DNA of 64,000 nucleotides from an uncultured Chloroflexia bacterium (GCA_963734535.1 CAVTHS010000004.1:1-64000); one strand, 5' to 3'. Shown: positions 1,491 through 17,199, numbered from the stretch's first letter. Notes: generated by a model from the letters alone, not told the origin. Numbers and translations: made by a program.

Positions 1491-1558
1491 ATCGTCGCCC
1501 CACGAACGGCACGCCCGCACGCAGGTGAGGCGCCGGTGTGTTGCAGGCGCATGTCGGT
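1491..1558 (-). promoter_or_regulatory. Island promoter A: TGCAAC-N43-GACGAT
   Basis: gttgca at 1540-1545 and atcgtc at 1491-1496 on the + strand; left half-site degenerate. Confidence 0.5.
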
Positions 1559-1567
1559 TTCTGGAGC

Positions 1568-2704
1568 TCAGGGGCCGATTGCCCCGGCCCGCTGAGGCGG
1601 CAGCTTGCCCGGACTGGCGGGCGGCGGGAGCTCCGCCGCGCCTTCGGCAGGCACAGCGGACGGCTCGAGGCCCACCGGCTGCGCACGTGCCTGGAGGCGT
1701 TCGAGGACGATCTCCGCGGAGGCCGCGATGGGCACCGCGAGGAACGCCCCGAAGAGCCCGCCGAGGGTGGCGCCCAGGAGGATGCTCACGATGACGATGA
1801 ACGGCGACAGGCCGACCGTGTTCCGCATGACCATCGGCACGACGACGTTCGACTCCACGACCTGCAGGATCACGTAGATCCCGACCACGGGGAGCACGAG
1901 ATCCGGTCGGACCGCGATCGCCACGAGCACGGCCGGTATCGCGCCGAGGAGCGGACCCACGATCGGAACGGCCTCGAAGAGGCCGGCGGCGAGGGCCAGC
2001 GCGAGCGCGACCGGGAGCCCCAGGAGGGTATACGCGGTGCCGGTCGCGAGGCCCATGAGGCCCATCAGCGTCAGCTGGCCGCGCATCCAGTGCCCCATTC
2101 GATCCTCGACATCGTTCCACGCAACCCGAACCCCCATTCGGCGCTCCAGGGGAAGGAAGGCCAGCCCGAACCGCTGCAGCCGCGCGCGTTCGTGCAGCCA
2201 GAAGAAGGTCAGCGTGGCGACCGTCACCAGCGTGTTCACGACGTCGAGGATGGTCCCGCCAGCCCCAAGAACCTGCGCCGACGTGGGCTGCGGAGCGGTG
2301 CGCACGGTACGGTCGAGATCGTCAATGACCGCCCCAAGCCCGGTCGCCAGCGGGGCGGGCAGCCCGGTGACGGCCTCACGAGCCGATGCAAGCACGGACG
2401 GAACACGCGCGGTGATCTCGCCCACCTGGGAGGCAGCCGTGGACACCAGCAGGATGCCGAGCGCGACCACAAGGGCGCCGACGGCCAGGAACAGCAGCCC
2501 GGTCGCCGCGGTTCGCCCGAACGGCGCCCGGGTCCGGACCCCGTCGACAACGGGACCGAGCGCGGAGGCGAAGAGAATTGCCACCAGGACCATCGCGACG
2601 ATCTTCAGCGCGGCAAGCGTGCTCGTGACGATGGCGATCACCAGGATGACGCCGATTGCGAACCCGACCCCCCGGCGGGTCCACGGACCCAGCTCCGCGT
2701 CCAT
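1568..2704 (-). CDS. AI-2E family transporter
   Basis: Multi-TM protein with typical motifs (VPIVGP, QVVESNVVVPMVM, GGLFGAFLAVP); GGAGG RBS before MDAELG. Confidence 0.9.
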   Translation of the reverse strand: MDAELGPWTRRGVGFAIGVILVIAIVTSTLAALKIVAMVLVAILFASALGPVVDGVRTRAPFGRTAATGLLFLAVGALVVALGILLVSTAASQVGEITARVPSVLASAREAVTGLPAPLATGLGAVIDDLDRTVRTAPQPTSAQVLGAGGTILDVVNTLVTVATLTFFWLHERARLQRFGLAFLPLERRMGVRVAWNDVEDRMGHWMRGQLTLMGLMGLATGTAYTLLGLPVALALALAAGLFEAVPIVGPLLGAIPAVLVAIAVRPDLVLPVVGIYVILQVVESNVVVPMVMRNTVGLSPFIVIVSILLGATLGGLFGAFLAVPIAASAEIVLERLQARAQPVGLEPSAVPAEGAAELPPPASPGKLPPQRAGAIGP

Positions 2705-2778
2705 TGTTCCCTCCGCCTCGGCCCCGGCGCCCGCGCGGGGACGGGGGGCGCATGACTGCCGTGGCGCGCGACTTCGGC

Positions 2779-2847
2779 ACCCTACGCGCAGACGCACCTC
2801 CCCGGGATTGCGCGGCACCGGGCCACACGTTGCATCTGCATCGCGAT
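2779..2847 (-). promoter_or_regulatory. Island promoter B: TCGC-N9-GCAAC-N44-TAGGGT
   Basis: Minus-strand atcgcgatgcagatgcaac (2829-2847); -10-like hexamer at 2779-2784. Confidence 0.55.
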
Positions 2848-2864
2848 CGCGACCTTCGGGAAGC

Positions 2865-2919
2865 GGCAAGGGATTGGGCCGCTGGCGAGATGCGGGTGCA
2901 ACACGACCCCGCAGAGAAT
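2865..2919 (+). promoter_or_regulatory. Island promoter C: GGCAAG-N26-TGCAAC-N11-GAGAAT
   Basis: Same 26 and 11 nt spacings as promoters D, E and J; no clear left half-site. Confidence 0.55.
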
Positions 2920-2981
2920 GAGTCCACCGCCTCCCCGCTCGGCCAAACCGGCCCGGCCCGGCGGTCAGCAGGAGAGACGCC

Positions 2982-3179
2982 ATGTGCCTCACGTGTGGCT
3001 GCAACGACGCCCACAAGTCGATGGGCAACAACCTGACGTACGAGGATGTCCAGGAAGTCGCCATCGCCAACGGGAAGACCGTTGACGAGACGCTCACGAC
3101 GATGAATGCGACGGCCGCCGCCGACAGGGCCAGGCACACGGACGAGTACCAGCGCCCGTCGGGCACCGGCCGGGACTGA
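2982..3179 (+). CDS. Small protein with N-terminal CxxCGC-x3-H putative metal-binding motif
   Basis: AGGAG RBS; MCLTCGCNDAH; protein-like composition. Confidence 0.8.
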   Translation: MCLTCGCNDAHKSMGNNLTYEDVQEVAIANGKTVDETLTTMNATAAADRARHTDEYQRPSGTGRD

Positions 3180-3184
3180 TCGTG

Positions 3185-3424
3185 ATGGCGGGCCGCAGTG
3201 CGGGTGACGGCCGGCCGGAGCTCCTCAGCTTCCCTTCCGAGGATCGAGCGTTCGCGCGGGAGGTCCAGGCAAGCCTCACAACCGAGCGCCCTCGATCACC
3301 CGCGGAGCTCGAGGGCTTCCTCCGGCGTCGGTTCCCGCGCGTCGTGGTACGGCCGCGTGACCTGTCGAATGAGTCGCGGGTGACCTGGTATGTCTTCCGC
3401 GACGGCAGGGTCATGCGCGCCTGA
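3185..3424 (+). CDS. Small hypothetical protein
   Basis: Directly follows the previous gene; compact sequence ending LRRRFPRVVVRPRDL...WYVFRDG. Confidence 0.65.
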   Translation: MAGRSAGDGRPELLSFPSEDRAFAREVQASLTTERPRSPAELEGFLRRRFPRVVVRPRDLSNESRVTWYVFRDGRVMRA

Positions 3425-3484
3425 CCAGGCCCGCCGTCTCTTGAACACACAGATGCCTGACGGCCGGCGGCTGGGCGCAGCCCG

Positions 3485-4334: not shown

Positions 4335-4340
4335 GGTCGA

Positions 4341-4480
4341 TTACGGGCGGCGATCCTGGAGGTGGGCCTCCAGGAAGTCGAGGTACTTGTCCGCGCAGCG
4401 GCCGATCTCCGTGAGGAGATCGGCCGTGTCGGCATCGCCGAGCTCATCGGTCATATCGATGGCCGCGCGGGCCGCGACTG
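4341..4480 (-). pseudogene. dps: C-terminal remnant of Dps (DNA starvation/stationary-phase protein)
   Basis: RAAIDMTDELGDADTADLLTEIGRCADKYLDFLEAHLQ matches the last helices of Dps; the upstream two-thirds is absent. Confidence 0.75.
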
Positions 4481-4492
4481 CCTGGGGCGGGG

Positions 4493-4927
4493 TCACGCCG
4501 GCTCCCGCCGGAAGATGCCCACCACCCACAGCACGATCAGCTCGAGGATCGTCCAGCCGACCAGGGCCACGACCGCAGCGACATCCAGGGTCGCACCGCC
4601 TGATGAGAGGGCATTCGAGTTGAGGATCCCCTCGAACGGGGCGACGAAGATCTTGCTGACGTCAAGGATGCCGGACACGAGCGCATTCCCGGTGCGGGCA
4701 TCGAGCAGGAGCAGGACGATCCGCAGCCCGATGACGATCTGGATGAGCCCGAATACCAGGACGATGATCCGCCGGACCATCTCGGAGCCCGCGGGGCCTG
4801 TCTGCGTGACGGAACGTCGCTCCGTCTGCACCGTTTCCCGGAACGGGGAAGTGGGTGCGCTTGCCGGCCCTGGCGTCACCGCCTGGTCCCGCGTCACGAC
4901 CCGCTGGTCGACTCGATCGGTTGTCAT
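4493..4927 (-). CDS. YggT-like membrane protein
   Basis: AGGAG RBS; LRIVLLLL...N.LV..I..VS..FVAPF.GI pattern with TM helices. Confidence 0.8.
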   Translation of the reverse strand: MTTDRVDQRVVTRDQAVTPGPASAPTSPFRETVQTERRSVTQTGPAGSEMVRRIIVLVFGLIQIVIGLRIVLLLLDARTGNALVSGILDVSKIFVAPFEGILNSNALSSGGATLDVAAVVALVGWTILELIVLWVVGIFRREPA

Positions 4928-5000
4928 GTCTTCTCCTCCTGTCGCCGCCCGCGTGCCGCGCGGCCGGCTTGGACGCGCCCCTTATGGGCGCGCCGGGACC

Positions 5001-5068
5001 ATGGTGCGTCGGGCCACATTGCCGCCGGCCTGCTCGATCGCGCGGCCGCGTTGCAGGCGCGCGGCAAG
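5001..5068 (-). promoter_or_regulatory. Island promoter D: TTGC-N9-GCAAC-N26-GGCAAT-N11-CACCAT
   Basis: Minus-strand cttgccgcgcgcctgcaac (5050-5068), half-site at 5018-5023, -10 at 5001-5006. Confidence 0.7.
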
Positions 5069-5097
5069 TCCACTCGATCTCGAGCAGGACCTCCGCG

Positions 5098-5601
5098 TCA
5101 GCCGGCTCGGACGCGGCCCGTTGAAGCCGGGGCCTCGTCCGCGACGATTGCAGCCGTCGTCGTCTCCGCGGGGCGCCGGACGGGCATGCTGCGCCGGCGT
5201 CCGAGCCGGGCGGCGAGGTAGACCAGCATGACCTCCCGAACCTGGGCATCGCTGAGGACCTGGTCGAGACGGAGGGCGTGCTCCACCCGCGCCGGGGCAA
5301 GTTCGGTCACGTCGTACGTTCGGGGCTCGAGCCAGTCCAGGCCGTTCGCCAGGCCGAGACCGCGGGCAAGCAGTGCCGCGGTACGAAGCGAGGGGGTTCG
5401 ACCTTCACGCATCAGCCGCGAGACGGTCGAGTGGTTCACCCCGGACTTGTGGGCCAGCTGGCGCTGGGTCAACCGTCTCGCCTTGAGCTGGACCTCGAGC
5501 CAGCGGTTGAACGACGTGCCGGTGGATCCCGGCGGACCCGCCGGGACATCCGCGGCGCCGGGTGGTGCGTGTTGCTCGATCATCCGTGGCTGGTCGATCA
5601 C
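5098..5601 (-). CDS. XRE/Cro-family helix-turn-helix transcriptional regulator
   Basis: LTQRQLAHKSGVNHSTVSRLMREGRTPSLRTAALLARGL; GGAGG RBS. Confidence 0.9.
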   Translation of the reverse strand: MIDQPRMIEQHAPPGAADVPAGPPGSTGTSFNRWLEVQLKARRLTQRQLAHKSGVNHSTVSRLMREGRTPSLRTAALLARGLGLANGLDWLEPRTYDVTELAPARVEHALRLDQVLSDAQVREVMLVYLAARLGRRRSMPVRRPAETTTAAIVADEAPASTGRVRAG

Positions 5602-5634
5602 CGCGGCACCTCCCGGCGTCGTTCTGGTGGGCGC

Positions 5635-5895
5635 TCAGACGAGGGCGCGGCGACCCGTGAACATGCGGTACACCGCGACGACGATGACGGCACCGATCAC
5701 GGCGACGACGATGCTCTCGATGTTGATGCCGGTCACGTCCGCCACCTTCAGCACGGTCCCCGCCAGGTAGCCCCCGACGAGGGCGCCGACGATGCCGAGG
5801 ATGATCGTCGCGATGACGCCTTCCCTGCCACCCATGATGAGGTTCGTGATGAACCCGGCGATCGCCCCAAGGACGATCCACGCGATGATTCCCAT
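5635..5895 (-). CDS. GlsB/YeaQ/YmgE family stress-response membrane protein
   Basis: MGIIAWIVLGAIAG...IILGIVGALVGG...IVVAVIGAVIV; AGGAG RBS. Confidence 0.92.
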   Translation of the reverse strand: MGIIAWIVLGAIAGFITNLIMGGREGVIATIILGIVGALVGGYLAGTVLKVADVTGINIESIVVAVIGAVIVVAVYRMFTGRRALV

Positions 5896-6027
5896 GGTCT
5901 TTCTCCTCTGCTGAGTTGTCCGCGGCGTGGTCTCCCACCGACCGCGTGATGATCCGCGCGAGTTCAGGTCCCGCGCATCGGCGCATGGCTGCCCGCCGAT
6001 GCCGGATGGCCCGGCGGGCACCCTGCG

Positions 6028-6095
6028 ATGATGGGCGCCGCGATGTTGCCGATGGCCGCCAGCGGCCGCTGCGGACATTGCATCGACGCGGCAGC
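6028..6095 (-). promoter_or_regulatory. Island promoter E: CTGC-N9-GCAAT-N26-GGCAAC-N11-CATCAT
   Basis: Minus-strand gctgccgcgtcgatgcaat (6077-6095), half-site at 6045-6050, -10 at 6028-6033. Confidence 0.7.
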
Positions 6096-6222
6096 GAAGG
6101 CGACTTCCTCGCCGAGACGCCCCAACGAACGTCCTGCGCTCGCCGCCCGGCCAGTCGAGGCCGAGGCCGCACGCCGTTGACGTGCGGTGAGGCTCGGCGG
6201 TTCGAAACTGGCGAACCGGCCC

Positions 6223-7134
6223 TCAGGGTCGCGGCTCGATCACCGTCAGGGCGGCCGGCCGAATCGACACGCTGATCGGCGTCGTCCCGATCACGCTGCC
6301 GTCGGTCTCCACGAGGCGGCGGCGCCTGGTCTCGATGCGGATCTCCCCGGCCTGCGCCCGGAAGACGTGGCCAGCCGCGCTCGCCCCCAGGTTGCGCTGC
6401 CGGAGCGCCTCCCATCCGGCAAGCAGGCCGAGAAACGGCCCCGGAGCACGAAGGACGATCACGTCGAGCCGCCCGTCGTCGGGCTGTATCTCCCGGCGCG
6501 TCTCGATGAGCGCTCCCATCTGGCCGAAGTTGGCGACCAGGACCTGCGCCGCCTGTCTCTTGATGCGGGCGCCGTCCAGGGTGATCTCGTGCCGGACGTC
6601 ACGGACGTGCTGCGCCTCGCGGATGGCCGCCAGCACGTAGGCCAGCTTGCCCAGGCGCCGCTTCTCGGCGGTCTCGGTCTCCTCCATGACGCGGGCGTCG
6701 AAGCCGACCCCACAGGCCACCGCGAAGTAGTGATCCTCACCCCCGACCCGGACGCGCCCGAGGTCGATCCGTCGATGGTGACCCTCGACCAGGACCTTCA
6801 CGGCCTCGTCGATCGGATGGGGGATCCCGAGGTTTCCCGCAAGGAGGTTGCCGGTTCCCTTCGGGATGATCCCGAGGGCCACCGTCGTTTCGGCGATCGC
6901 GTTGACAACCTGCAGCACGGCGCCGTCGCCGCCGACCGCGACGACCACGTCGATCTCAGCCTTCGCTGCGTCGGCGGCGTGGCCCCGAAGTGCGCTCTTG
7001 CGCCGGACCACGACGCCCTCGACGTCCCATCCGGCGCTCTCGAGTCGCTCCTGCGTCTCGCGAACCGCCTCGCCGATCTTGCGGCCGGGTCGGCGCCGGC
7101 CGATGACGAGCGCATGCGTCCGGGTGTCACTCAC
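6223..7134 (-). CDS. Diacylglycerol kinase family (YegS/DgkB-like) lipid kinase
   Basis: AVGGDGAV, LGIIPKGTGNLLA, GVGFDA, PDDGRLDV; GTGA overlap with the upstream PAP2 stop. Confidence 0.92.
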   Translation of the reverse strand: MSDTRTHALVIGRRRPGRKIGEAVRETQERLESAGWDVEGVVVRRKSALRGHAADAAKAEIDVVVAVGGDGAVLQVVNAIAETTVALGIIPKGTGNLLAGNLGIPHPIDEAVKVLVEGHHRRIDLGRVRVGGEDHYFAVACGVGFDARVMEETETAEKRRLGKLAYVLAAIREAQHVRDVRHEITLDGARIKRQAAQVLVANFGQMGALIETRREIQPDDGRLDVIVLRAPGPFLGLLAGWEALRQRNLGASAAGHVFRAQAGEIRIETRRRRLVETDGSVIGTTPISVSIRPAALTVIEPRP

Positions 7135-7925
7135 GATTCCTCCATCCGCGTCGACCCGCGGAGACCTGGGTTGTCCGGGCCAGGTACAGGCCCATGGCGC
7201 CCGAGCCGCGAAAGAGGACCAGCCCGGAATGCGCCCGCCACGACCAGGAGCCATGCCGTTCCAGCCAGCAGGCCGCCCGCCACGTCGGTCAGGTAGTGAT
7301 AGCCGAGGTAGATCCGGCTCACGCCGATGACCAGGGTCAGCAGGACCGCGGTCGCAAGCGCGGCAAGCCCGGCCCGGCGGCCGAGCACCGACCACAGGAC
7401 GACCGCCAGGGCCACGTAGAAGACCAGCGAGTTCATCGTGTGGCCGCTCGGGAAGCTGTAGTCGGGCAGGACATGCGCCCAGGCGAGCTGCGGTCGCGGG
7501 CGGGCGAAGAAGACCTTCATCAGCTCGTTGAGCACCAGGCTCCCGCCGGACGCGATTGCCAGGAACAACGCCTCGCGCGGCCGGTGGGCCACGATCAGCC
7601 AGGTGATCGCGATGGCGAACAGTGGCGGGATTGCGAGGTTCGAGCCCATGAACGTGGCGGCCTGCATGAGACCATCCAGGGCCGGCGATGCGAGCCCGTG
7701 GAGAAATGGCGTGGCGACCGTGTCGAGAACGAGCACCTCCCTGTCGCGGATCGACTCGGCGAGCAGGCCCAGCACCACCAGACACGCAAGAAGAGCGATG
7801 AATCCACCCGCGACCATCACCGAGGCGGTGCTGACGGGCGTTCCCACGGCCGACCGCAGCGGGCCGCGGCTTGTCGCGCCTGTCGGCAGCCGCGCCTCCG
7901 ATGCCACGCCGTCGTTCGGCTTCAT
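7131..7925 (-). CDS. PAP2 family membrane phosphatase
   Basis: K-x4-RPRP, SFPSGH and SRIYLGYHYLTDV motifs; GGAGG RBS. Confidence 0.93.
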   Translation of the reverse strand: MKPNDGVASEARLPTGATSRGPLRSAVGTPVSTASVMVAGGFIALLACLVVLGLLAESIRDREVLVLDTVATPFLHGLASPALDGLMQAATFMGSNLAIPPLFAIAITWLIVAHRPREALFLAIASGGSLVLNELMKVFFARPRPQLAWAHVLPDYSFPSGHTMNSLVFYVALAVVLWSVLGRRAGLAALATAVLLTLVIGVSRIYLGYHYLTDVAGGLLAGTAWLLVVAGAFRAGPLSRLGRHGPVPGPDNPGLRGSTRMEES

Positions 7926-7975
7926 GCGTGCCTCCGGTGTACGCCGCACCCCGCGAGAATGGTACAAAGGGGATC

Positions 7976-9661
7976 ATGCCAACCCTTCTCCTGGGGCCGC
8001 TCCTGCGCTACGTGAGCGAGCACGACGCGACCGTGTGGGTCGAGACGGCCGGCCCGTGCATGGTCGAGGTCCGCGCCGGAACGACGAGCGGTACCGGGCA
8101 CACGTTCTCGGTTGCGCGCCATCACTACGCCGTCGTCATCGTGACCGGGCTCCCAGCCGGCTCGTCCACTCCATACGAGGTTCTCCTCGATGGGAACCTG
8201 GTCTGGCCCCAGCCGGGATCGCCCCATCCGCCGAGCAGGATCCGGACCTTCTCGCCCGGCCGGCCGGTTCGGCTGCTGTTCGGCTCCTGTCGCGAGCCGT
8301 CCCCCGGCGGGTCACGCGAAGGCCCGGGCGTGGATCCGGACGTGCTGGACGCCTACGCGATACGCATGGCCAGCCAGGCTCACGAGGAGTGGCCCGACGC
8401 GCTCCTGATGGTCGGCGACCAGGTCTATGCCGACGATACGTCCGCGACGGTCGGCCGCTTCATTCGAAGCCGCCGGGACGTCCGTCGCGCCCCGCACCTC
8501 GAGGTCGCCGACTTCGAGGAGTACACGCGGCTGTACCTCGAGTCCTGGGGCGACCCGAACATCCGCTGGCTGCTCTCGACACTCCCCACGTGCATGATCT
8601 TCGACGACCACGACGTCCGGGATGACTGGAACACGTCGCATGCGTGGCGCGTGGAGATGCAGGCCACCCCCTGGTGGGAGGAGCGGATCACCGGCGCCCT
8701 CATGTCGTACTGGATCTACCAGCACCTGGGCAACCTGTCGCCCGCCGGCCTCGCCGCGAGCGAGGTATACGCCGCGGTGCGCGCCGTGCCCGATGGAGAG
8801 GCGGCCCTGCGCGTGTTCGCCCAGGCGGCCGACCGCGAGGCGGACGGCGCCAAGGGCGCCATGTGGTCCTACCGGCGGGACCTCGGGTCGGTGCGCCTGC
8901 TGGTGATCGACTCGCGATGCGGCCGGATCCTGGCCGACGGCCGGCGGTCCATGGTGGGGGAGGCCGAGTTCGCCTGGATCGAGGCGCAGGCGGAGGACGG
9001 GCCGTACGACCACCTGGTCGTCGGGACATCCCTTCCATGGCTCCTTCCGCGGGCCCTCCACGACATGGAGTCGTGGGACGAGGCGCTCTGCGCAGGAACC
9101 CGCGGCCGCCGCCTTGCCGGGTTCGGCGAGTGGCTGCGACGGGCGGTCGACCTCGAGCACTGGGCGGCCTTTCGGGGGTCGTTCGACCGGCTGGCGGCGC
9201 TCTTCGCGCGGGTCGGGCGCGGGGAGCACGGCTGGGACGCGCCCGCCACGATCTGCGTCGTCTCGGGGGACGTGCACCACACCTATGTATCCGAGGCCGA
9301 CTTCCCGCAGCCAGTCTCGTCGCGCGTGTACCAGATCACGTGCTCGCCCATCCACAACACGATCCCGCGCGTCATGCGCATCGTCTTTCGGGTGGGGTGG
9401 AGCCACACGGCGGAGCGGCTGACCCACGCGCTCGACCGCTTCGCCGGCGTCCCGCCCTTGCCGCTCTACTGGCACCATCCGACGGGTCCGCACTTCGGCA
9501 ACGAGCTGGCGCTGCTCGTGTTCGACGGCCGGTCCGCCCGGGTCGTGCTGGAACGGTCGCTCCGCCCGGCGACCCTCGCGCGCGGGGAGGCCGGCGACGG
9601 ATCGGAGCCCGGCCTGGCGATCGTGGTCGAACAACCGCTGACCGACGGGGTGAACACCTAG
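7976..9661 (+). CDS. Alkaline phosphatase D (PhoD-like) metallophosphatase without signal peptide
   Basis: FGSCR, GDQVYADD, IFDDHDV.DDWN, DLEHW and SGDVHH motifs. Confidence 0.9.
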   Translation: MPTLLLGPLLRYVSEHDATVWVETAGPCMVEVRAGTTSGTGHTFSVARHHYAVVIVTGLPAGSSTPYEVLLDGNLVWPQPGSPHPPSRIRTFSPGRPVRLLFGSCREPSPGGSREGPGVDPDVLDAYAIRMASQAHEEWPDALLMVGDQVYADDTSATVGRFIRSRRDVRRAPHLEVADFEEYTRLYLESWGDPNIRWLLSTLPTCMIFDDHDVRDDWNTSHAWRVEMQATPWWEERITGALMSYWIYQHLGNLSPAGLAASEVYAAVRAVPDGEAALRVFAQAADREADGAKGAMWSYRRDLGSVRLLVIDSRCGRILADGRRSMVGEAEFAWIEAQAEDGPYDHLVVGTSLPWLLPRALHDMESWDEALCAGTRGRRLAGFGEWLRRAVDLEHWAAFRGSFDRLAALFARVGRGEHGWDAPATICVVSGDVHHTYVSEADFPQPVSSRVYQITCSPIHNTIPRVMRIVFRVGWSHTAERLTHALDRFAGVPPLPLYWHHPTGPHFGNELALLVFDGRSARVVLERSLRPATLARGEAGDGSEPGLAIVVEQPLTDGVNT

Positions 9662-10392
9662 GCGGCTTCCTGGCGCTGTCGATCGCGACCCGGGCGCGTG
9701 AGCCAGCCATAGATGCCCAGGACCCCGATGGCGAACAGCAGGCCTCCCAGCACATCGGTCGGATAGTGGACGTTGATGGCCATGCGCGCGAGCCCCACCA
9801 GGATGACCCACACGATCAGGACCGCCCAGACCGCCACCCGGGCGGCGAGCGGCCAGGCGCTGCGCCATGACCTGATGGCGACGATGCCCAGGATCGTCAG
9901 CGCTTCCAGGACGTGGCCGGAGGGGTAGCTGTACACGACACCGGGGATCGTGGGATCGGTTCCGGACGGGCGCGGTCGCGCCACCAGCTGCTTGAAGCCC
10001 TCGCTGCCAGCCGTGATGGCGATGAGCATGACTGCGACGATCAGCGCCTCACGGCGCCGGTGGGTGAAGAAGAGCCACACGACCAGCCCGACGCCGATCA
10101 CGATCAGCGGGATGTTTGCGGACGAGGAGAAGCCCTGCCAGATGTCTGGCAGTCCATCCAGGGTTCTCGCGAAAGCCAGGATCGTCTGATCGAAGGGGAT
10201 CACAACCTTGCTCGCCACGAGCACGGTGAGCATGAGGAAGCCGGCCAAACCCGCCACCGCCAGGATGAGCCACGCCGCTCCGTTGGCGACGCCGGCCGTG
10301 TCGTGGGGCGCCGTCCGGGCCTGACCCGGCGCGCGAGCCGGGAGCCCGAGTGCGCGGCCCGGAGTCTGCGGATCGGTCGTCTCGGTCGTCAT
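9658..10392 (-). CDS. PAP2 family membrane phosphatase
   Basis: KQLVARPRP, SYPSGH, ARMAINVHYPTDV. Confidence 0.92.
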   Translation of the reverse strand: MTTETTDPQTPGRALGLPARAPGQARTAPHDTAGVANGAAWLILAVAGLAGFLMLTVLVASKVVIPFDQTILAFARTLDGLPDIWQGFSSSANIPLIVIGVGLVVWLFFTHRRREALIVAVMLIAITAGSEGFKQLVARPRPSGTDPTIPGVVYSYPSGHVLEALTILGIVAIRSWRSAWPLAARVAVWAVLIVWVILVGLARMAINVHYPTDVLGGLLFAIGVLGIYGWLTRPGRDRQRQEAA

Positions 10393-10399
10393 GGTGAGG

Positions 10400-10467
10400 A
10401 CAATGAGGAGCCCGTCCGCTCGCCGATCACACGGATCCCGCCCCCGGCGTTGCATTCACGCGGCAAA
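10400..10467 (-). promoter_or_regulatory. Island promoter F: TTGC-N9-GCAAC-N43-CATTGT, probably leaderless
   Basis: Minus-strand tttgccgcgtgaatgcaac (10449-10467); -10 at 10400-10405 is 7 nt from ATG 10392. Confidence 0.7.
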
Positions 10468-10516
10468 CGGCGGCCTTCGCGCCCGCCCTGCAGTCCCGGC
10501 CGTCCGCCGCCGACGT

Positions 10517-10584
10517 GTCGATAGGCGACTGCAATCCCCGGAACAGCCGGGGCGCCCTGTCCGATATGCCCGTGCGGCGATGAT
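10517..10584 (+). promoter_or_regulatory. Island promoter G: TCGA-N9-GCAAT-N43-GATGAT
   Basis: gtcgataggcgactgcaat at 10517-10535; gatgat at 10579-10584. Confidence 0.5.
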
Positions 10585-10692
10585 CGGACTCGACGGCCGT
10601 CGGGCCTCCGAGAATGCCCCGAGAAAACGCACCGAAGGGGAGGGGATGCTCGACAGCCTGCCTGAGACACGGCGAGATCCGCTGGGCACATC

Positions 10693-11049
10693 ATGGGCGA
10701 GGCGCCCGCGGGGGTCATCGTCTACACCGCCGACGGGACGATCATGGTGACGATCTCCGCTTCGGATCGTCCGCCGATCGAGGGCAACGATCCGTTCGGT
10801 GGCCCTGACCACCAGCGGCTCGCGGCAATGCGGACGTTCCTTGCCTACTCGGGGACGTACCACCTCGACGGCTCCGACCTGATCCACGATGTCGTGATCA
10901 GCTTCTACCCGAACTGGGTGGGAGGAGCGCAGCGGCGGCATGCCGCCCTGTCGGACAACGGTCGGACCCTCACGCTCAGCACGGACCCGATCGTGGCGGC
11001 GGGCCGGACGAGCATCCAGCGCCTCGTCTGGGATCGCGTCAGCGAGTGA
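10693..11049 (+). CDS. Lipocalin-like domain protein, apparently N-terminally truncated
   Basis: G.I.YT.DG, AYSGTY, PNWVG..Q.R and L.W.R motifs; the usual N-terminal GxW strand is missing. Confidence 0.75.
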   Translation: MGEAPAGVIVYTADGTIMVTISASDRPPIEGNDPFGGPDHQRLAAMRTFLAYSGTYHLDGSDLIHDVVISFYPNWVGGAQRRHAALSDNGRTLTLSTDPIVAAGRTSIQRLVWDRVSE

Positions 11050-11102
11050 CCCCAGGCGTCCGGGGTACCGGCTTCGTGACCCGGTGGACCTGCCGCGTTC
11101 GT

Positions 11103-11171
11103 GTTGTCGTGAGCCTGTAACGCGGCCGACCGCGTGGCGCATCCGGAGCACCGCGGTGCGGGCCGTAGTGT
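11103..11171 (+). promoter_or_regulatory. Island promoter H: TTGT-N9-GTAAC-N44-TAGTGT
   Basis: gttgtcgtgagcctgtaac at 11103-11121; tagtgt at 11166-11171, 8 nt before ATG 11180. Confidence 0.55.
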
Positions 11172-11179
11172 CTCCGACC

Positions 11180-12253
11180 ATGACGATCCTCATCTCGGTC
11201 TTCGGGTTCGCCGGCCGGCTCGCCGGAGGCCTCCTCATGAGCGCACTCGGCTGGGCCAGCAGCCTGCTGTTCGGGAGGGTGCCACGGTCGCACCAGGTCT
11301 TCCTGGTCCTGATGATGGCGGGGTCCTTCACCTGGCTCCTGTTCGTCCTGGGCCTTGTGCTTCCGAGCATCGCCGCGCTGCTCCTCAGTGCGACGCCCCA
11401 CCCTCCGTTCGTCGACCAGGCCTGGCTCGCCTTCGTGCTGCTCGTCGGGATGTTCCTCCTGCCGCTCGGCGTTGGCCTCGCGGGGTACCTCGTGCCCGCC
11501 GCGGGTGAGCGTCCGGGCGGGGTGGCCGTCGTCCGCGAGCTGCTCCGCGGCTATCTCCTCGCGCCCGTGGTCAGCGGCCTGCTGCTTTTCCTCGGGGCCG
11601 TCGGGATCGTGCGCAAGGTCCGAAGCCGGCGGCACGGCTGGTCCGATGTCCACGTCCCGATCGTGGTCAAGCCCGGTGGGTATGAGCAGATGGTGCTCGA
11701 TCTGCAGCAGGCCCTCGCTGGCGCGGACGTCCCGGCCACCGCGCAGGACGCCCCCTGGGTCCTGACCCTGCCGGCGCGGCTGCTGGCCCGGGTGGCCGGC
11801 GGCAATGTCCGAAAGCTGCGGCCCGACCGCCTCGTCGAGCTGCGTCGCCCGGACCTGCGGATCGGCATGTATCCCTCGGACATCGCGATCTCCGGCGCCC
11901 TCCGCGACCGGACCCGCGCACGAGCCGCGGTCCTGAGCCGGCTCGCGACAAGCTCGGCGCACCTAACCATCAGCGCCGAGGCCCAGGAGCTCGAGGACCG
12001 GCTGGAGGGCGTCGCGACGCCCGCCGGCGCGACCGGACCCCTTCCGATCGCCAACGCGCGGGCCGTGTTCTCGGCGATCGACGCGCGCCTGCTCGACCTC
12101 GCTGTCCCGACGGACGAGTGGGACATCCTGTACCGCCTCCGCCTCCAGATCGAGCGCGACCTCCTCGCGGGGGCCGAGCCGGGGATGGCCTTCCCCGGCC
12201 ACGAGCGCGAGTCGAGCGGTGGGGCGGCGCCGCAGCCGGTGGAGGCCTTGTGA
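11180..12253 (+). CDS. Hypothetical membrane protein (N-terminal TM helices plus soluble C-terminal domain)
   Basis: Long ORF with coherent hydrophobic segments; family not recognised. Confidence 0.8.
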   Translation: MTILISVFGFAGRLAGGLLMSALGWASSLLFGRVPRSHQVFLVLMMAGSFTWLLFVLGLVLPSIAALLLSATPHPPFVDQAWLAFVLLVGMFLLPLGVGLAGYLVPAAGERPGGVAVVRELLRGYLLAPVVSGLLLFLGAVGIVRKVRSRRHGWSDVHVPIVVKPGGYEQMVLDLQQALAGADVPATAQDAPWVLTLPARLLARVAGGNVRKLRPDRLVELRRPDLRIGMYPSDIAISGALRDRTRARAAVLSRLATSSAHLTISAEAQELEDRLEGVATPAGATGPLPIANARAVFSAIDARLLDLAVPTDEWDILYRLRLQIERDLLAGAEPGMAFPGHERESSGGAAPQPVEAL

Positions 12254-12314
12254 GGCGGCTGCAACGCCGCAGGCGCTGTCGCCGGTCAATTCGGGCCCAA
12301 GCGTCAAGCACCCT
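12247..12314 (+). promoter_or_regulatory. Island promoter I: TTGT-N9-GCAAC-N43-CACCCT
   Basis: cttgtgaggcggctgcaac at 12247-12265; caccct at 12309-12314. Confidence 0.6.
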
Positions 12315-12364
12315 GAGAGTCGCCGGGCGACGCCTGTCGGCCCGGCCAACCAGGAGGAGATGTG

Positions 12365-12835
12365 ATGTCCCGCGTGGAAAAGCAGATCGTGGTCGATGTT
12401 CCGGTCGAGGCCGCGTATGACCAGTGGACCCAGTTCGAGTTGTTCCCATCCTTCATGGAGGGCGTCGAACGGGTCGTCCAGCACGACGACAGGACGCTCA
12501 CGTGGTGGGTGAAGATCGCCGGAAAGCGCCAGGAGTGGACGGCCGAGATCGTCGACCAGACGCCGAACACGCGGATCGCCTGGAAGAGCACGCAGGGCAC
12601 CGAGAACGCCGGCGCGGTGCTGTTCGCGCCGCTGGATGCGGGCCGGACACGGGTGACGCTCTCGATCGAGGCGCGGCCCGACGGGATCGTCGAGCACATC
12701 GGGGATGCGGCCGGGTTCCTCGACCGCCAGGTCCAGGGTGACCTCGAACGGTTCAGGGCCTTCATCGAGACGCGCCGCGTCCCAACCGGTGCGTGGCAGG
12801 GCGAGATCCACGGCAAGGAGGTCGTCCGCTCCTGA
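12365..12835 (+). CDS. SRPBCC (polyketide cyclase-like) family protein
   Basis: VDVPVEAAYDQWTQFELFPSFMEGV...RIAWKS...NAGAV...GDLERFRAFIE; AGGAGG RBS. Confidence 0.93.
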   Translation: MSRVEKQIVVDVPVEAAYDQWTQFELFPSFMEGVERVVQHDDRTLTWWVKIAGKRQEWTAEIVDQTPNTRIAWKSTQGTENAGAVLFAPLDAGRTRVTLSIEARPDGIVEHIGDAAGFLDRQVQGDLERFRAFIETRRVPTGAWQGEIHGKEVVRS

Positions 12836-12861
12836 GACGGAGGCGCTGCTCCGCTGAACGC

Positions 12862-12894
12862 GCCGGGCTCCTCTGACGAGGGCCCGGCTCTCTC
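12862..12894 (+). terminator. Putative intrinsic terminator hairpin
   Basis: gccgggctcctc-tgac-gagggcccggc followed by tctctc, just after the SRPBCC stop. Confidence 0.5.
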
Positions 12895-13108
12895 GTGGGC
12901 ATCGTCGCGCTCCGTGGAGCTCGAGGGCGGCGGACGTGCGGCGGGTGGACGCGCAATGTCGCTCGCGCCCGACAGCGCTCGAGCATCGATGAGAACTGGC
13001 CGAGGCACGATCGGCCCCACGTGAGAATTCTCGGTTGGCGTCCAGCGGAGGTCGCGCCTCGCCTGTTCCCGGGCAGCGCAGAATGGCTACGTGAGAAGGC
13101 GCGGCAGC

Positions 13109-15365: not shown

Positions 15366-15839
15366 TCATTGCTCGCGCCGACCGGCGATGGCGCGGACCG
15401 ACGCCCGCGCGGTCACCTTGCGAGCGGCCATCCGCCTGCCGAGGGCTTCGAGCTCAGGCCGATCGAAGATGCGGCGCGCCTTCGCGAACATCTCCGTCTC
15501 TTCCTCTTCGATGTGATGCTCGACGTTCTCGCGCATGACGGCCGCCTTTGCACCCCAGGCCTCGTTGTCGGGCGCCAGGTTCGTCAGCTCGCCGAGCAGC
15601 GTGTCGACGACATTGTGCTCCTCGATCCCCTCCAGCACGATGTCCCGTGCCCTGGGATGCTCCTTGAGGGCCGGGTAGAAGATCTCCTCCTCGATGGTCT
15701 CGTGGACCGTGAGCTCGGCCTTGATCCGGTCGAAGAGGTCGCGGCGGCCAACGCGTGCGCGCGCGGTCGTCGCGCCGAGCCGGAGAAGGAGCCCCTTGAC
15801 CTTGGCGTGGTCTCGCTCGAGCATCATGATGGCGTTCAT
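15366..15839 (-). CDS. Hemerythrin/HHE domain protein
   Basis: DH, HETIEEEIFYPAL, EEH and HHIEEEE..MF motifs; GAGG RBS. Confidence 0.93.
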   Translation of the reverse strand: MNAIMMLERDHAKVKGLLLRLGATTARARVGRRDLFDRIKAELTVHETIEEEIFYPALKEHPRARDIVLEGIEEHNVVDTLLGELTNLAPDNEAWGAKAAVMRENVEHHIEEEETEMFAKARRIFDRPELEALGRRMAARKVTARASVRAIAGRREQ

Positions 15840-15953: not shown

Positions 15954-15993
15954 GCGGCGAATGGGACCAGGCCCGTTCCTGCCGAGGGATCGA

Positions 15994-16284
15994 TCAACGC
16001 CGTTCCTCGCGCTGAGGGATTCCCTTCTCGCGATCGTGCCGCTTCTCGTCGGCGAGCCCGCCAGTCGCGCCGCCCGCCGCACCGATGATGCCTCCGACGA
16101 CCGCCCCAACTGGTCCGCCGACCACCGCGCCGACGGCGGCCCCCGCTATGCCACCGGCAATCGCGCCACTCGCCTCCTCATCGCCGTGGTCGTCGGCCCC
16201 CGGCGCGTAGCCCTTGCGGAGGCGCTCGCGCCGATCGATACCCTCGTCGATGATCGTCTCCCGCTCGGGAACCCTATCGTTCAT
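15994..16284 (-). CDS. Small glycine-zipper protein
   Basis: GAIAGGIAGAAVGAVVGGPVGAVVGGIIGAAGG flanked by charged segments. Confidence 0.8.
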   Translation of the reverse strand: MNDRVPERETIIDEGIDRRERLRKGYAPGADDHGDEEASGAIAGGIAGAAVGAVVGGPVGAVVGGIIGAAGGATGGLADEKRHDREKGIPQREERR

Positions 16285-16335
16285 GAACCGGCCCTCTTGC
16301 TGGGAGTGTGCGCGCGCCGGGCGGCGTCAGCGCTG

Positions 16336-16403
16336 ATGATGGGGGCGGGCACCTTGCCGATGACCACACGGGCGCCGCGCGCGCGTTGCAGCGACGCGGC
16401 AAT
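16336..16403 (-). promoter_or_regulatory. Island promoter J: TTGC-N9-GCAAC-N26-GGCAAG-N11-CATCAT
   Basis: Minus-strand attgccgcgtcgctgcaac (16385-16403), half-site at 16353-16358, -10 at 16336-16341. Confidence 0.7.
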
Positions 16404-16423
16404 ACGATGGGCCGCTGTCCGGG

Positions 16424-16620
16424 TCAGACGCTCGGCTCGGTATCGGCGAAGGTGCCCCGGGTGGCTGCGCTCCTCGGCGTCCTCCTCCGGGGTTGTCTCC
16501 TCGCCGACGGCGAAGCCACCGCGAGCGTGGAGCCGCCGCTCTGCGTTCTCCTCTGGATGCTCTTCCTGCCCGGTCGCGAAGCTTCCGCGATGGTGGATGC
16601 GCTCCTCGGCGTCTCGATCC
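16424..16620 (-). pseudogene. Remnant of a small acidic 22-aa tandem-repeat protein
   Basis: DAEERIHHRGSFATGQEEHPEE / NAERRLHARGGFAVGEETTPEE / DAEERSHP then, after a 1-nt shift, GTFADTEPSV-stop; no RBS-supported start. Confidence 0.55.
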
Positions 16621-16622
16621 TG

Positions 16623-16690
16623 AGAGCGAGAGATCTGCAACGAGATCGACGGTCCGCACAGCGCCGCGGCGATTCGTTCCGTGAGACGGT
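16623..16690 (+). promoter_or_regulatory. Island promoter K: GAGC-N9-GCAAC-N26-GGCGAT-N11-GACGGT
   Basis: tgcaac at 16636-16641, ggcgat at 16668-16673, gacggt at 16685-16690. Confidence 0.55.
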
Positions 16691-16764
16691 GCTCGCGGCC
16701 CGGCACTCGGGCCCAACATGGCCCTTGGCAGGTCGCCGACGGGCCCGAGATCAGGAGGCTGACA

Positions 16765-17016
16765 ATGGCTGAGCTCACGACCAAGGGGCGGGACAAGCTC
16801 CGTTCCTCGCAGTTCGCGTACGTCGACTCGAAGGGCGGGGAGCACCTCCCCATTCATGACGAATTGCACGTGCGGAACGCGATTGCCCGTTTCAGCCAGA
16901 CCGACTTCGAGAGTGCGGCAGCCAAGGAGCGCGCCAGGCGCAGGATCAGGGCCGCCGCGCGCCGCCACGGCATCGAGGTCGACGGCGACGCGAAGACCCG
17001 GCGGCCGAGCCGGTAA
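16765..17016 (+). CDS. Small protein, DUF6582-like
   Basis: AGGAGG RBS; RDKLRSSQFAY...LPIHDELHVRNAIARF.Q...RRIRAAARRHGIEV. Confidence 0.85.
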   Translation: MAELTTKGRDKLRSSQFAYVDSKGGEHLPIHDELHVRNAIARFSQTDFESAAAKERARRRIRAAARRHGIEVDGDAKTRRPSR

Positions 17017-17130
17017 GGGCCGGCCGCATCCAGCGAGCCGCGATCCTTCCTCAACGCTGTGGCCACGGGTCGAACGCACCCCGGGCGTCGGAGGAGTTCA
17101 ATATGGAGTCGCGAGACGGCGCGTCCGGGC

Positions 17131-17199
17131 GTGGCGGACCTCGAGCAACCGCCCCGCAGACTGACCCAAAGCAGCCGAGGGGCACAGACTGCTGACGCT
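17131..17199 (+). promoter_or_regulatory. Island promoter L: TGGC-N9-GCAAC-N44-GACGCT (weak)
   Basis: gtggcggacctcgagcaac at 17131-17149; gacgct at 17194-17199. Confidence 0.4.

What the first reader, a model, noticed from the sequence alone, without database searches (positions are those of the whole stretch)
1491..17199. Candidate undescribed regulon: TTGC-N9-GCAA operator at fixed spacing upstream of 12 promoters in a stress-gene island
Seen in sequence: four upstream regions carry near-identical 19-mers on the coding strand: cttgccgcgcgcctgcaac (5050-5068, yggT), gctgccgcgtcgatgcaat (6077-6095, glsB), tttgccgcgtgaatgcaac (10449-10467, PAP2) and attgccgcgtcgctgcaac (16385-16403, glycine zipper). 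Looser copies lie at 1540, 2829, 2865, 10517, 11103, 12247, 16623 and 17131. In all 12 the right half-site sits 43 nt (nine cases) or 44 nt (three cases) upstream of an NANNNT hexamer and points toward the adjacent gene, on either strand. I found no site with this geometry beyond about 17.2 kb. Established knowledge: several downstream families (GlsB/YeaQ, Dps, SRPBCC, hemerythrin, YihY, AI-2E) recur in general-stress regulons of other phyla. Inference: a dimeric activator centred near -65 drives a general-stress or stationary-phase programme. I do not recognise the motif as that of a described regulator.
Basis: partly seen in the sequence, partly recalled or inferred. Interest (0 to 1): 0.9.

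Follow-up and report, generated by a model that had tools for sequence, protein, structure and literature searches.

The report
Two-component stress regulon in Chloroflexota
A cluster of stress and membrane genes in an uncultured soil bacterium shares one promoter design whose repeated box most likely binds a response regulator encoded at the cluster's edge: a real but fairly ordinary kind of gene switch, not yet described for this group.

Summary
All 12 sites exist at the stated coordinates with the stated 43 nt (9) or 44 nt (3) spacing to an NANNNT hexamer. Nine carry TGCAA[CT], two are plausible variants and one is weak. In window 1-17.2 kb, 9 of 14 TGCAA[CT] have this geometry, against 14 of 446 elsewhere in the genome (Fisher p = 6e-10).

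The interpretation needs correcting.
- The operator is not a TTGC-N9-GCAA palindrome. It is a tandem direct repeat with an 11-bp period, TGYnAY-N5-TGCAAY(G), spanning about -72 to -56.
- A weaker third GCRA box lies 12 nt upstream of the -10.
- The island continues onto the neighbouring contig. There it encodes a histidine kinase (DUF4118-GAF-PAS-HisKA-HATPase) and an OmpR/PhoB-family response regulator whose own promoter carries the motif.
- Orthologues of this regulator (78-95% identical) occur in 12 of 42 genus genomes and in other genera and a second family. They sit beside motif-bearing promoters of the same gene families.
- Clusters of hits appear only in genomes that have the regulator.
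- The island's XRE gene does not track the motif.

Binding, activation, the signal and the transcription starts are inferred, not shown. This is a new member of a known kind, with KdpE-like site geometry and a WalR-like half-site. Interest is moderate.

The parts
1539..1557 (-). Tandem box pair (CCGACATGCGCC-TGCAAC-A). The -10 GACGAT lies at 1491-1496, 43 nt downstream. This is the promoter of orf114-CorA.
   Evidence: (33.3 bits); conserved in G023 and G010
70..1457 (-). Conserved 114-aa membrane protein (1113-1457) followed by a CorA-like transporter (70-1092).
   Evidence: Pfam CorA 7.8e-47; orf114 is 77-93% identical in relatives
2828..2846 (-). Tandem box pair. The -10 TAGGGT lies at 2779-2784, 44 nt downstream. 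This is the promoter of the AI-2E family transporter (1568-2704).
   Evidence: (29.2 bits); Pfam AI-2E_transport
2865..2919 (+). Variant promoter of the 65-aa Cys-rich protein (2982-3179). It has a distal GGCAAG at 2865-2870, a perfect TGCAAC at 2897-2902 in the proximal-box position, and a -10 GAGAAT at 2914-2919.
   Evidence: TGCAAC-N11-GAGAAT is conserved in G023
5049..5067 (-). Strong box pair TTGCCGCGCGCC-TGCAAC-G. The -10 CACCAT lies at 5001-5006. This is the promoter of the YggT-like gene (4493-4927).
   Evidence: (38.8 bits); Pfam YGGT, below cut-off
6076..6094 (-). Strong box pair CTGCCGCGTCGA-TGCAAT-G. The -10 CATCAT lies at 6028-6033. This is the promoter of GlsB/YeaQ (5635-5895) and, 33 nt further on, the XRE HTH_3 gene (5098-5601).
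   Evidence: (36.6 bits); Pfam Transgly_assoc and HTH_3
10448..10466 (-). Strong box pair. The -10 CATTGT lies at 10400-10405. The PAP2 phosphatase gene (9658-10392) starts 7 nt after the hexamer and is leaderless.
   Evidence: the ATG lies 7-9 nt after the hexamer in G023, G043 and G010 as well
10518..10536 (+). Box pair TCGATAGGCGAC-TGCAAT-C. The -10 GATGAT lies at 10579-10584. This is the promoter of the Lipocalin_5-like gene (10693-11049) and is divergent from PAP2.
   Evidence: (34.3 bits); Pfam Lipocalin_5
11104..11122 (+). Variant box pair TTGTCGTGAGCC-TGTAAC-G. The -10 TAGTGT lies at 11166-11171, 44 nt downstream. The unknown membrane protein (11180-12253) starts 8 nt after the hexamer and is leaderless.
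   Evidence: (box score 9.3); no Pfam family; homologues lie in the islands of G006, G012, G010 and G045
12248..12266 (+). Box pair TTGTGAGGCGGC-TGCAAC-G. The -10 CACCCT lies at 12309-12314. This is the promoter of the SRPBCC protein (12362-12835).
   Evidence: (24.4 bits); orthologous promoters in G045, G006 and G010
16384..16402 (-). Strongest box pair TTGCCGCGTCGC-TGCAAC-G. The -10 CATCAT lies at 16336-16341. This is the promoter of the glycine-zipper protein (15994-16284) and hemerythrin (15366-15839).
   Evidence: (41.2 bits); Pfam
16624..16642 (+). Box pair GAGCGAGAGATC-TGCAAC-G. The -10 GACGGT lies at 16685-16690. This is the promoter of DUF6582 (16765-17016).
   Evidence: (20.6 bits); DUF6582 also carries the motif in G023, G010, G018 and a genome of another family
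17132..17199 (+). Doubtful twelfth site: AGCAAC core, with GACGCT at 17194-17199, 44 nt downstream and ahead of YihY/BrkB (17221-18264).
   Evidence: box score -4.0; membership uncertain

Best explanation
The sites are the operators of a two-component system encoded at the edge of the same island, on the adjoining contig.
- The kinase lies at G000:C5:66555-68531 and has DUF4118 membrane, GAF, PAS, HisKA and HATPase domains.
- The response regulator lies at C5:65571-66371 and belongs to the OmpR/PhoB family.

Proposed mechanism (inferred). On an unknown signal, probably envelope, osmotic or desiccation-type stress, the kinase phosphorylates the regulator. The regulator then binds head-to-tail as a dimer to two hexamers with an 11-bp period: TGYnAY-N5-TGCAAY, followed by G. 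These lie at about -72 to -56, exactly 43-44 nt upstream of a weak -10 (NANNNT). A third, weaker GCRA box lies 32 nt further on and 12 nt before the -10, where a -35 element would normally be. Binding recruits RNA polymerase to about 14 promoters in roughly 21 kb, including the regulator's own promoter (positive autoregulation).

Shown here: the motif, its direct-repeat nature, the fixed geometry, its conservation upstream of the same gene families in other species, genera and a second family, and its co-localisation and co-occurrence with the regulator gene.

Inferred: that this protein binds the boxes, that it activates, where transcription starts, and what the signal is.
For: 1. Motif type. 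In 43 sites from 9 genomes the left box mirrors the right as a direct repeat. In other genera it reads TGCAAC-N5-TGCAAT, TGTAAC-N5-TGTAAC or a triple TGTAAT-N5-TGTAAC-N5-TGCAAT. Hexamer direct repeats separated by 5 nt are documented binding-site architectures of OmpR-family regulators: WalR (PMC4168254 passages) and KdpE (PMC3264566 passages).

2. Regulator. P0004 has Response_reg and Trans_reg_C domains, and P0005 is a complete kinase. They lie next to the island, because the end of C5 abuts the start of C4 by synteny with G023.

3. Autoregulation. The regulator's own upstream region carries TGCGAT-N5-TGTAAT-N43-CACTCT in G000. It carries TGCAAC-N5-TGTAAY or a standard site in 10 of 13 genus loci.

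4. Independent scan. A matrix trained only on the 33 sites from other genomes gives 14 hits of 14 bits or more in the whole G000 genome. Twelve of them lie in the 21-kb island.

5. Co-occurrence.
- Orthologues of 80% identity or more occur in 12 of 42 genus genomes.
- Clusters of 3 or more pattern hits within 30 kb occur in 5 of those 12 and in 0 of the 30 without the regulator.
- The regulator lies within about 10 kb of sites in G000, G023, G010, G006, G008, G012, G007, G054 and G045.

6. Breadth. Orthologues of 78-89% identity occur in 15 of 23 other genomes of the family and in 3 of 16 of a second family. In those loci, 11 of 22 box hits have NANNNT at +43/44, and they lie upstream of YggT, DUF6582 or the regulator gene.

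7. Position. The site spans -72 to -56 if transcription starts about 7 nt after the hexamer. KdpE binds at -72 to -50. Two leaderless genes, whose ATG lies 7-9 nt after the hexamer in four genomes, support the -10 assignment.
Against: - There is no binding, expression or transcription-start data. No RNA run was listed.
- The link between regulator and motif rests on adjacency, co-occurrence and motif type.
- G018 has one site upstream of DUF6582 but no regulator was found. That genome is 69% complete.
- G014 has the regulator, but no cluster was seen in the pattern search. That genome is 60% complete.
- Summed pattern counts are only modestly above the control in regulator-positive genomes (71 against 50). 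In regulator-negative genomes they are 62 against 79 (my sums).
- Orthologous promoters are not independent observations. One column, G at -10, was used to select the 43 sites.
- The left box is poorly conserved in G000 itself.
- The third box could be an unusual -35 element rather than a regulator contact.
Confidence: 0.72

Rival explanations
1. The island's XRE/HTH_3 protein (window 5098-5601) is the regulator. It would bind a 17-bp TTGC-N9-GCAA palindrome as a symmetric dimer.
For: The gene lies in the island, 33 nt downstream of glsB and under a strong site. The four strongest G000 sites read as a pseudo-palindrome. XRE-type proteins usually bind dyads of 14-18 bp (recalled). The island-type copy was found only in G045, G023, G018, G006 and G012, all of which have sites.
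Against: - The profile fits a direct repeat, not a dyad.
- Seven of the 11 other regulator-positive genomes lack an island-type XRE. These include G010, which has 10 sites.
- In the G045 island the XRE is reduced to fragments, and in G023 it reads in three frames.
- The gene is more likely a target of the regulon.
Confidence: 0.07
2. An unlinked factor recognises the promoters and the adjacent two-component system is merely one of its targets. The factor could be another transcription factor, or an alternative sigma factor that reads the GCRA box and the NANNNT hexamer.
For: - The -10 lacks the usual first T. In 43 sites the first base is C 20, G 16, T 5 and A 2.
- A conserved G lies 16 nt before the hexamer in 38 of 43 sites.
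- The 12-nt gap between the GCRA box and the hexamer does not fit a standard sigma-70 -35 element.
- No direct evidence ties the regulator to the boxes.
Against: - No conserved element lies 16-17 nt downstream of TGCAAC.
- A 12-nt spacer fits no sigma class that I can name (recalled).
- The strongest and most widely conserved elements are the upstream tandem hexamers, which are typical winged-helix sites.
- The regulator is the only regulatory gene found inside or beside the islands in several genomes.
Confidence: 0.13
3. The boxes are not regulatory. They are remnants of a promoter module copied around the island by duplication.
For: The four strong G000 sites share about 70 nt of extended similarity.
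Against: Between genomes only the boxes, the spacing and the hexamer are kept, while the 43-nt spacer diverges. The same design stands upstream of orthologues that are 33-63% identical and in another family. Rfam finds no RNA family there.
Confidence: 0.03

Closest known systems
KdpD/KdpE (E. coli)
   Same: KdpE is the best solved-structure match of the regulator (4kfc, 7e-49). The kinase shares the DUF4118-GAF-HisKA-HATPase layout of the C-terminal half of KdpD (the KdpD layout is recalled). KdpE binds two 6-bp direct repeats separated by 5 bp at -72 to -50 (PMC3264566 passages). That is the same architecture and almost the same position as here.
   Different: The regulator scores 180 bits on the KdpE model, against a cut-off of 325. 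The kinase has no KdpD N-terminal domain. The genome has its own kdpA and KdpD on contig C14. The half-site here is TGCAAY, not TTTAYA. The targets are about 14 stress and membrane promoters, not kdpFABC.
WalR/WalK (YycFG, VicRK) of Firmicutes
   Same: The consensus TGTWAH-N5-TGTWAH is two hexamers separated by 5 nt (PMC4168254 passages). The variants TGTAAC and TGTAAT seen here fit it exactly.
   Different: The dominant box here, TGCAAY, has C at position 3. The regulator scores 175 bits on the YycF model, against a cut-off of 340. The phylum, kinase layout and target genes all differ.
PhoB-type promoters (pho box in place of the -35)
   Same: A regulator box sits where the -35 should be, about 10-12 nt before the -10 (recalled, not checked in a paper). 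This resembles the third GCRA box here.
   Different: The strong boxes here lie further upstream, and the proximal box is single and weak. The PhoB model scores 180 bits against a cut-off of 296.
General stress regulons run by sigma factors or DosR (sigma-B, EcfG, DosR)
   Same: The gene content overlaps: GlsB/YeaQ, glycine-zipper, hemerythrin, SRPBCC and small hydrophilic proteins (family content of those regulons is recalled).
   Different: The mechanism here is an OmpR-type activator site, not a sigma promoter or a DosR palindrome. No stress induction has been shown.

Membership tests
OmpR/PhoB-family two-component regulon | The regulator has a receiver domain plus a winged-helix Trans_reg_C domain | tested here: met
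   P0004: Response_reg 1.2e-30 and Trans_reg_C 7.6e-19. The acidic pocket DDEP, LLD, T and K motifs are visible in the sequence.
OmpR/PhoB-family two-component regulon | A cognate histidine kinase is encoded next to the regulator | tested here: met
   P0005: DUF4118, GAF, PAS, HisKA and HATPase_c. It is adjacent in G000, G023, G010 and G006.
OmpR/PhoB-family two-component regulon | The binding site is a tandem direct repeat with a period of about 10-11 bp | tested here: met
   Column counts of 43 sites; overt repeats in other genera and upstream of the regulator gene.
OmpR/PhoB-family two-component regulon | The regulator physically binds the boxes and phosphorylation controls binding | not testable with these tools
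   No binding or expression data. No RNA run was listed.
KdpD/KdpE | The regulator scores above the KdpE equivalog cut-off | tested here: not met
   180.1 bits against a cut-off of 325.
KdpD/KdpE | The kinase carries the KdpD N-terminal sensor domain, and the target is kdpFABC | tested here: not met
   P0005 has no PF02702 match. KdpD and kdpA lie on contig C14.
WalR/WalK | The regulator scores above the YycF equivalog cut-off | tested here: not met
   175.3 bits against a cut-off of 340.
WalR/WalK | The sites fit TGTWAH-N5-TGTWAH | tested here: inconclusive
   Spacing and most positions fit. The dominant TGCAAY departs at position 3, while the TGTAAY variants fit.
XRE/Cro-CI type repressor-operator | The operator has dyad symmetry | tested here: not met
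   Position -8 is A in 8 of 43 sites, where a dyad requires A. Positions -7 and -5 fit a direct repeat.
XRE/Cro-CI type repressor-operator | The regulator gene co-occurs with the operator | tested here: not met
   The island-type XRE was found in 5 other genomes. Sites occur in G010, G043, G008 and G007 without it.
Alternative sigma promoter (ECF or sigma-B type) | Conserved -35 and -10 elements separated by 12-17 nt, with TGCAAC as the -35 | tested here: not met
   No conserved element follows TGCAAC at 12-20 nt. The hexamer lies 43-44 nt away.
Structured RNA leader (Rfam) | A match to a covariance model | tested here: not met
   The only hit was a chance snoRNA match at 2284-2341, at 27 bits against a gathering score of 84.

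The most novel reading that the evidence does not exclude
This kinase-regulator pair is the master switch of a general stress or dormancy programme, for desiccation, freezing or osmotic shock, in a class of soil and permafrost Chloroflexota. In that lineage an OmpR-type activator with a rigid three-box promoter design would do the job that sigma-B, EcfG or DosR do elsewhere. The regulon would travel as a compact island with one promoter per gene.
Probability: 0.25. Interest if true: 0.7.

Novelty: new member of a known kind. Interest (0 to 1): 0.45.

Why it matters
Gene regulation in uncultured soil Chloroflexota is essentially unstudied.

This work gives three testable things for that group:
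- a complete map of a regulator, its operator and about 14 promoters;
- a consensus site, TGYnAY-N5-TGCAAYG, placed 43-44 nt before NANNNT;
- a list of target families: CorA, AI-2E, YggT, GlsB, PAP2, lipocalin-like, SRPBCC, glycine-zipper/hemerythrin, DUF6582 and several unknown small or membrane proteins.

The map is conserved across genera, so the motif can be used to annotate the regulon in other metagenome-assembled genomes. It can also be used to read metatranscriptomes of drying or freezing soils.

The rigid spacing and the many single-gene promoters packed into one island are unusual for a two-component regulon. They make a convenient model for studying promoter architecture.

It is not a new kind of regulatory mechanism.

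Tried and rejected
- **Palindrome reading.** Rejected on column counts and on sites from other genera.
- **TGCAAC as an ECF-type -35.** No conserved element follows it at 13-17 nt.
- **Sigma-54 reading of the reverse strand.** Inspection of the sequences shows no GG-N10-GC arrangement.
- **RNA element.** Rfam gave nothing relevant at E up to 1.
- **Strict 18-mer in relatives.** The 8 hits in 41 genomes were unrelated sequences without the hexamer. The strict pattern was too narrow. That table also showed 0 hits for G000 itself although the sites exist; I cannot explain this.
- **XRE as regulator.** Followed through, then downgraded (see rivals).
- **Genome-wide enrichment of NANNNT after TGCAAC.** No peak appears at 43/44 over the whole genome, because most copies are coding. 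The signal is local to the island.
- **Dps in the island.** Not found.
- **Small 67-aa protein downstream of the regulator.** I guessed it was CsbD-like, but Pfam gave only sub-threshold hits to Grg1, MT0933_antitox and YtxH.
- **Expression.** No RNA holder was listed for window 4400-12900.
- **Literature.**
  - Searches for TGCAAC-N5, TGCAAT-N5, TGTAAC-N5, TGCAACN5, TGYAAY and TGCAAY returned only unrelated primer papers (listing only).
  - A search on Chloroflexi + response regulator + regulon + direct repeat + stress returned 4 unrelated papers (listing only).
  - On the strength of these two searches alone I found no description of this motif or regulon.
  - Supplements were not consulted.

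Full report
**What is in the sequence**

The window is the first 64 kb of contig C4 of a 3.2-Mb assembly in 14 contigs, about 71% G+C and about 90% complete. Its closest named relatives are two MAG records titled Chloroflexota bacterium.

Exact TTGC-N9-GCAA occurs three times in the window, against 0.13 expected from shuffles. TGCCGCG-N5-TGCAA[CT] occurs four times in the whole genome, all in the window. The four strong copies share further similarity over about 70 nt.

**Is the geometry more than chance?**

Genome-wide, 460 TGCAA[CT] were examined and 23 have NANNNT at +43 or +44, close to the roughly 4.5% expected. Nine of the 23 lie in window 1-17 kb and a tenth at the very end of contig C5.

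Within window 1-17.2 kb, 9 of 14 TGCAA[CT] have the geometry, against 14 of 446 elsewhere (Fisher p = 6e-10). A whole-genome offset profile shows no peak at 43/44, so the signal is local to the island.

- TGTAAC at 11116, with TAGTGT 44 nt on and a leaderless ATG 8 nt after it;
- GGCAAG at 2865, 43 nt before GAGAAT, with a perfect TGCAAC lying 11 nt before that hexamer;
- AGCAAC at 17144, which scores poorly.

Every hexamer is followed by a gene start with a Shine-Dalgarno sequence or a leaderless ATG.

**Genes**

Pfam assigns the following:
- CorA, preceded by a conserved 114-aa membrane protein;
- an AI-2E family transporter;
- Fpg/Nei;
- a YggT-like protein (below cut-off);
- an HTH_3 (XRE) protein;
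- GlsB/YeaQ;
- a DAGK/YegS-like kinase;
- two PAP2 phosphatases flanking a PhoD-like gene;
- a Lipocalin_5 protein, an SRPBCC protein and a GH3 protein;
- hemerythrin and a glycine-zipper protein (below cut-off);
- DUF6582, YihY/BrkB and GT87.

No ferritin/Dps gene is in the island. The only one in the genome is on contig C2.

**The island continues on the next contig and encodes a two-component system**

A relative, G023 (contig C350), carries the same gene order. It shows that the end of contig C5 abuts the start of C4.

The last 3.3 kb of C5 encode two proteins on the minus strand:
- an OmpR/PhoB-family response regulator (C5:65571-66371, P0004; Response_reg plus Trans_reg_C);
- a histidine kinase (C5:66555-68531, P0005; DUF4118, GAF, PAS, HisKA, HATPase_c).

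The tenth site (C5:68527, plus strand) lies in the region upstream of the kinase gene, on the opposite strand. It precedes a 49-aa membrane peptide.

**The operator is a direct repeat**

I collected 43 sites from 9 genomes: G000 10, G023 7, G045 4, G006 5, G012 2, G010 10, G008 2, G043 2 and G018 1. Selection required G at -10, so that column is circular. It had, however, been G in 9 of 9 unselected G000 sites.

Column counts are given relative to the T of TGCAAY:

| Position | Count (of 43) |
|---|---|
| -12 | T 23, C 16 |
| -11 | T 22, C 18 |
| -9 | C 22, A 13, T 8, G 0 |
| -8 | A only 8 |
| -7 | A 29, G 14 |
| -5 | G 34 |
| +6 | G 33 |

Shifted by 11 nt, the left element (Y-G-H-n-R-y-G) matches the right element (T-G-C-A-A-Y-G) at six of seven positions. 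A dyad would need A at -8, opposite the invariant T, and would not explain -7 or -5.

In other genera the left box is explicit:
- TGCAAC-N5-TGCAAT;
- TGTAAC-N5-TGTAAC;
- CGCAAC-N5-TGCAAT;
- TGCAAC-N5-TGTAAC;
- once, three boxes in a row.

The TTGC-N9-GCAA appearance in G000 arises from a degenerate left box, TGCCGC, preceded by a T.

Anchored on the hexamer, a third and weaker element appears: G at -16 in 38 of 43 sites, followed by C, R and A. This lies 32 nt after box 2 and 12 nt before the hexamer. In the promoter of the small Cys-rich gene this proximal position holds a perfect TGCAAC.

The first base of the hexamer is mostly C or G (20 and 16 of 43), not T.

**Independent check**

A matrix trained only on the 33 sites from other genomes was run over the whole G000 genome, on both strands. 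It gave 14 hits of 14 bits or more.
- Twelve lie in the island. They are the nine window sites, C5:68527, C5:65497 (a TGAAAT variant ahead of a 67-aa hydrophilic protein) and C5:66466.
- C5:66466 is the regulator's own promoter, TGCGAT-N5-TGTAAT-N43-CACTCT.
- The other two (C13:50598 and C11:100202) are weak in one half.

**The regulator tracks the motif; the XRE gene does not**

Orthologues of the regulator (80-100% identity, E up to 1e-60) are in 12 of 42 genus genomes. Its best paralogue inside G000 is only about 40% identical.

In G023, G010, G006 and G008 the orthologue lies inside the motif island. In G012, G007, G054 and G045 it lies within about 10 kb of sites.

Of 13 genus loci showing the regulator's upstream region, 10 carry TGCAAC/T-N5-TGTAAY or a standard site directly upstream. 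G000 carries the TGCGAT variant. For G006 and the second G008 copy I saw none.

A pattern search of all 42 genomes (G-N9-TGCAAY-N44-ANNNT) gave clusters of three or more hits within 30 kb in:
- G000, G023, G045, G006 and G010, that is 5 of the 12 genomes with the regulator;
- none of the 30 genomes without it.

Pairs within 10 kb add G008, G046 and G012. My sums of the same table are 71 hits against 50 control hits with the regulator, and 62 against 79 without it. The bulk enrichment is therefore modest, and the clusters carry the argument.

Exceptions:
- G018 (69% complete) has one DUF6582 site and no regulator found.
- G014 (60% complete) has the regulator but no cluster in this search.

The island-type XRE (55-76% identity) was found only in G045, G023, G018, G006 and G012. 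Elsewhere only a roughly 50% paralogue exists. G010, with 10 sites, has no island-type copy. In G045 the in-island copy is a remnant, and in G023 it reads in three frames.

**Breadth**

In an even sample of 401 genomes of the phylum, orthologues with E up to 1e-85 occur in 20:
- 15 of 23 other genomes of the family, spread over nine genera;
- 3 of 16 genomes of a second family;
- one distant match at 62% identity;
- 0 of 4 of the small-genome family of the same order.

In the 19 loci fetched, 22 positions score 9 bits or more on the box matrix. Eleven of them have NANNNT at +43/44, and these stand upstream of YggT, DUF6582 or the regulator.

Orthologous stress genes only 33-63% identical to those of G000 (YggT-GlsB, SRPBCC, CorA) keep the design in G006 and G012.

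**Comparison with known systems**

- **Solved structures.** The best matches to the regulator are E. coli KdpE (7e-49), then M. tuberculosis PhoP, RegX3 and MtrA.
- **NCBIfam.** All equivalog models score far below their cut-offs: RpaB 207/330, MtrA 197/300, PhoB 180/296, KdpE 180/325, YycF 175/340.
- **KdpE.** It binds two 6-bp direct repeats separated by 5 bp, between -72 and -50 (PMC3264566, passages read).
- **WalR.** Its consensus is TGTWAH-N5-TGTWAH (PMC4168254, passages read).
- **Canonical Kdp.** The genome has its own kdpA and KdpD on contig C14, so this pair is not KdpDE.
- **Literature.** Two searches for the motif, and for a Chloroflexi regulon of this kind, found nothing relevant (listings only).

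**Mechanism, and what is inferred**

If transcription starts about 7 nt after the hexamer, the two boxes span about -72 to -56 and the third box about -29 to -24. The -10 assignment is supported by two genes whose ATG follows the hexamer by 7-9 nt in G000, G023, G043 and G010.

An upstream position fixed to the base pair, a poor -35 region and autoregulation together point to activation by a phosphorylated regulator dimer. Binding, activation, the signal and the starts are all inferred. No RNA data were available.

The stress label rests only on the families involved.

**Verdict**

It is wrong on symmetry, and it missed the regulator, which lies just beyond the window. The system is a new member of a well-known kind.

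Noticed in passing
window 1-120 and G000:C5:68440-68759: The end of contig C5 and the start of contig C4 are adjacent in the genome, with a gap of a few bases at most. This follows from colinearity with G023 contig C350. The assembly break falls just after a 49-aa ORF.
   Followed up: yes
G000:C14:227293-227703: A paralogue of the island XRE protein, about 51% identical, is present in nearly every genome of the genus (37 of 42 had a match). Several matches read through one TGA. Its role is unknown.
   Followed up: no
L030 (G023:C350) 10413-10885; L068 (G045:C31) 1925-2112: The in-island XRE gene reads in three frames in G023, through either a frameshift or an assembly error. In G045 it is reduced to two short fragments, while the flanking glsB and yggT genes stay intact.
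   Followed up: partly
window 10392 and 11180: Two regulon genes, PAP2 and an unknown membrane protein, appear to be leaderless: the ATG lies 7-8 nt after the -10 hexamer.
   Followed up: partly
G022:C60:10232, G043:C215:347, G017:C88:442, G003:C97:356, G002:C8:173257: A near-identical 65-nt stretch beginning GCGACCCGAATGCAATACTCGG recurs in five genus genomes, four of them without the regulator. I did not determine whether it is coding.
   Followed up: no
window 17221-18264 (+) and 17794-19614 (-): The YihY/BrkB frame and the long GT87 frame overlap by about 470 nt on opposite strands. The C-terminal part of the GT87 frame is low-complexity and is probably not translated as drawn.
   Followed up: no
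window 7131-7967 and 9658-10392: Two PAP2 paralogues flank a PhoD-like phosphatase with a DUF7800 domain, next to a DAGK/YegS-like lipid kinase. Together they form a lipid-phosphate module, of which only the second PAP2 has its own box pair.
   Followed up: no
G000:C5:65373-65170 region (L077 6411-6614, minus): A 67-aa hydrophilic protein follows the TGAAAT-variant site downstream of the regulator gene. It has only sub-threshold Pfam hits (Grg1, MT0933_antitox, YtxH).
   Followed up: partly
table, row G000: The strict 18-mer pattern search reported 0 matches in G000, although the four sites are in its contig C4. A later pattern search did list G000 sites. The cause is unknown.
   Followed up: no
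G008:C17:113054 and G008:C26:437251; G315:C58 and C67: Two genomes carry two copies of the regulator orthologue (80-83% identity).
   Followed up: no
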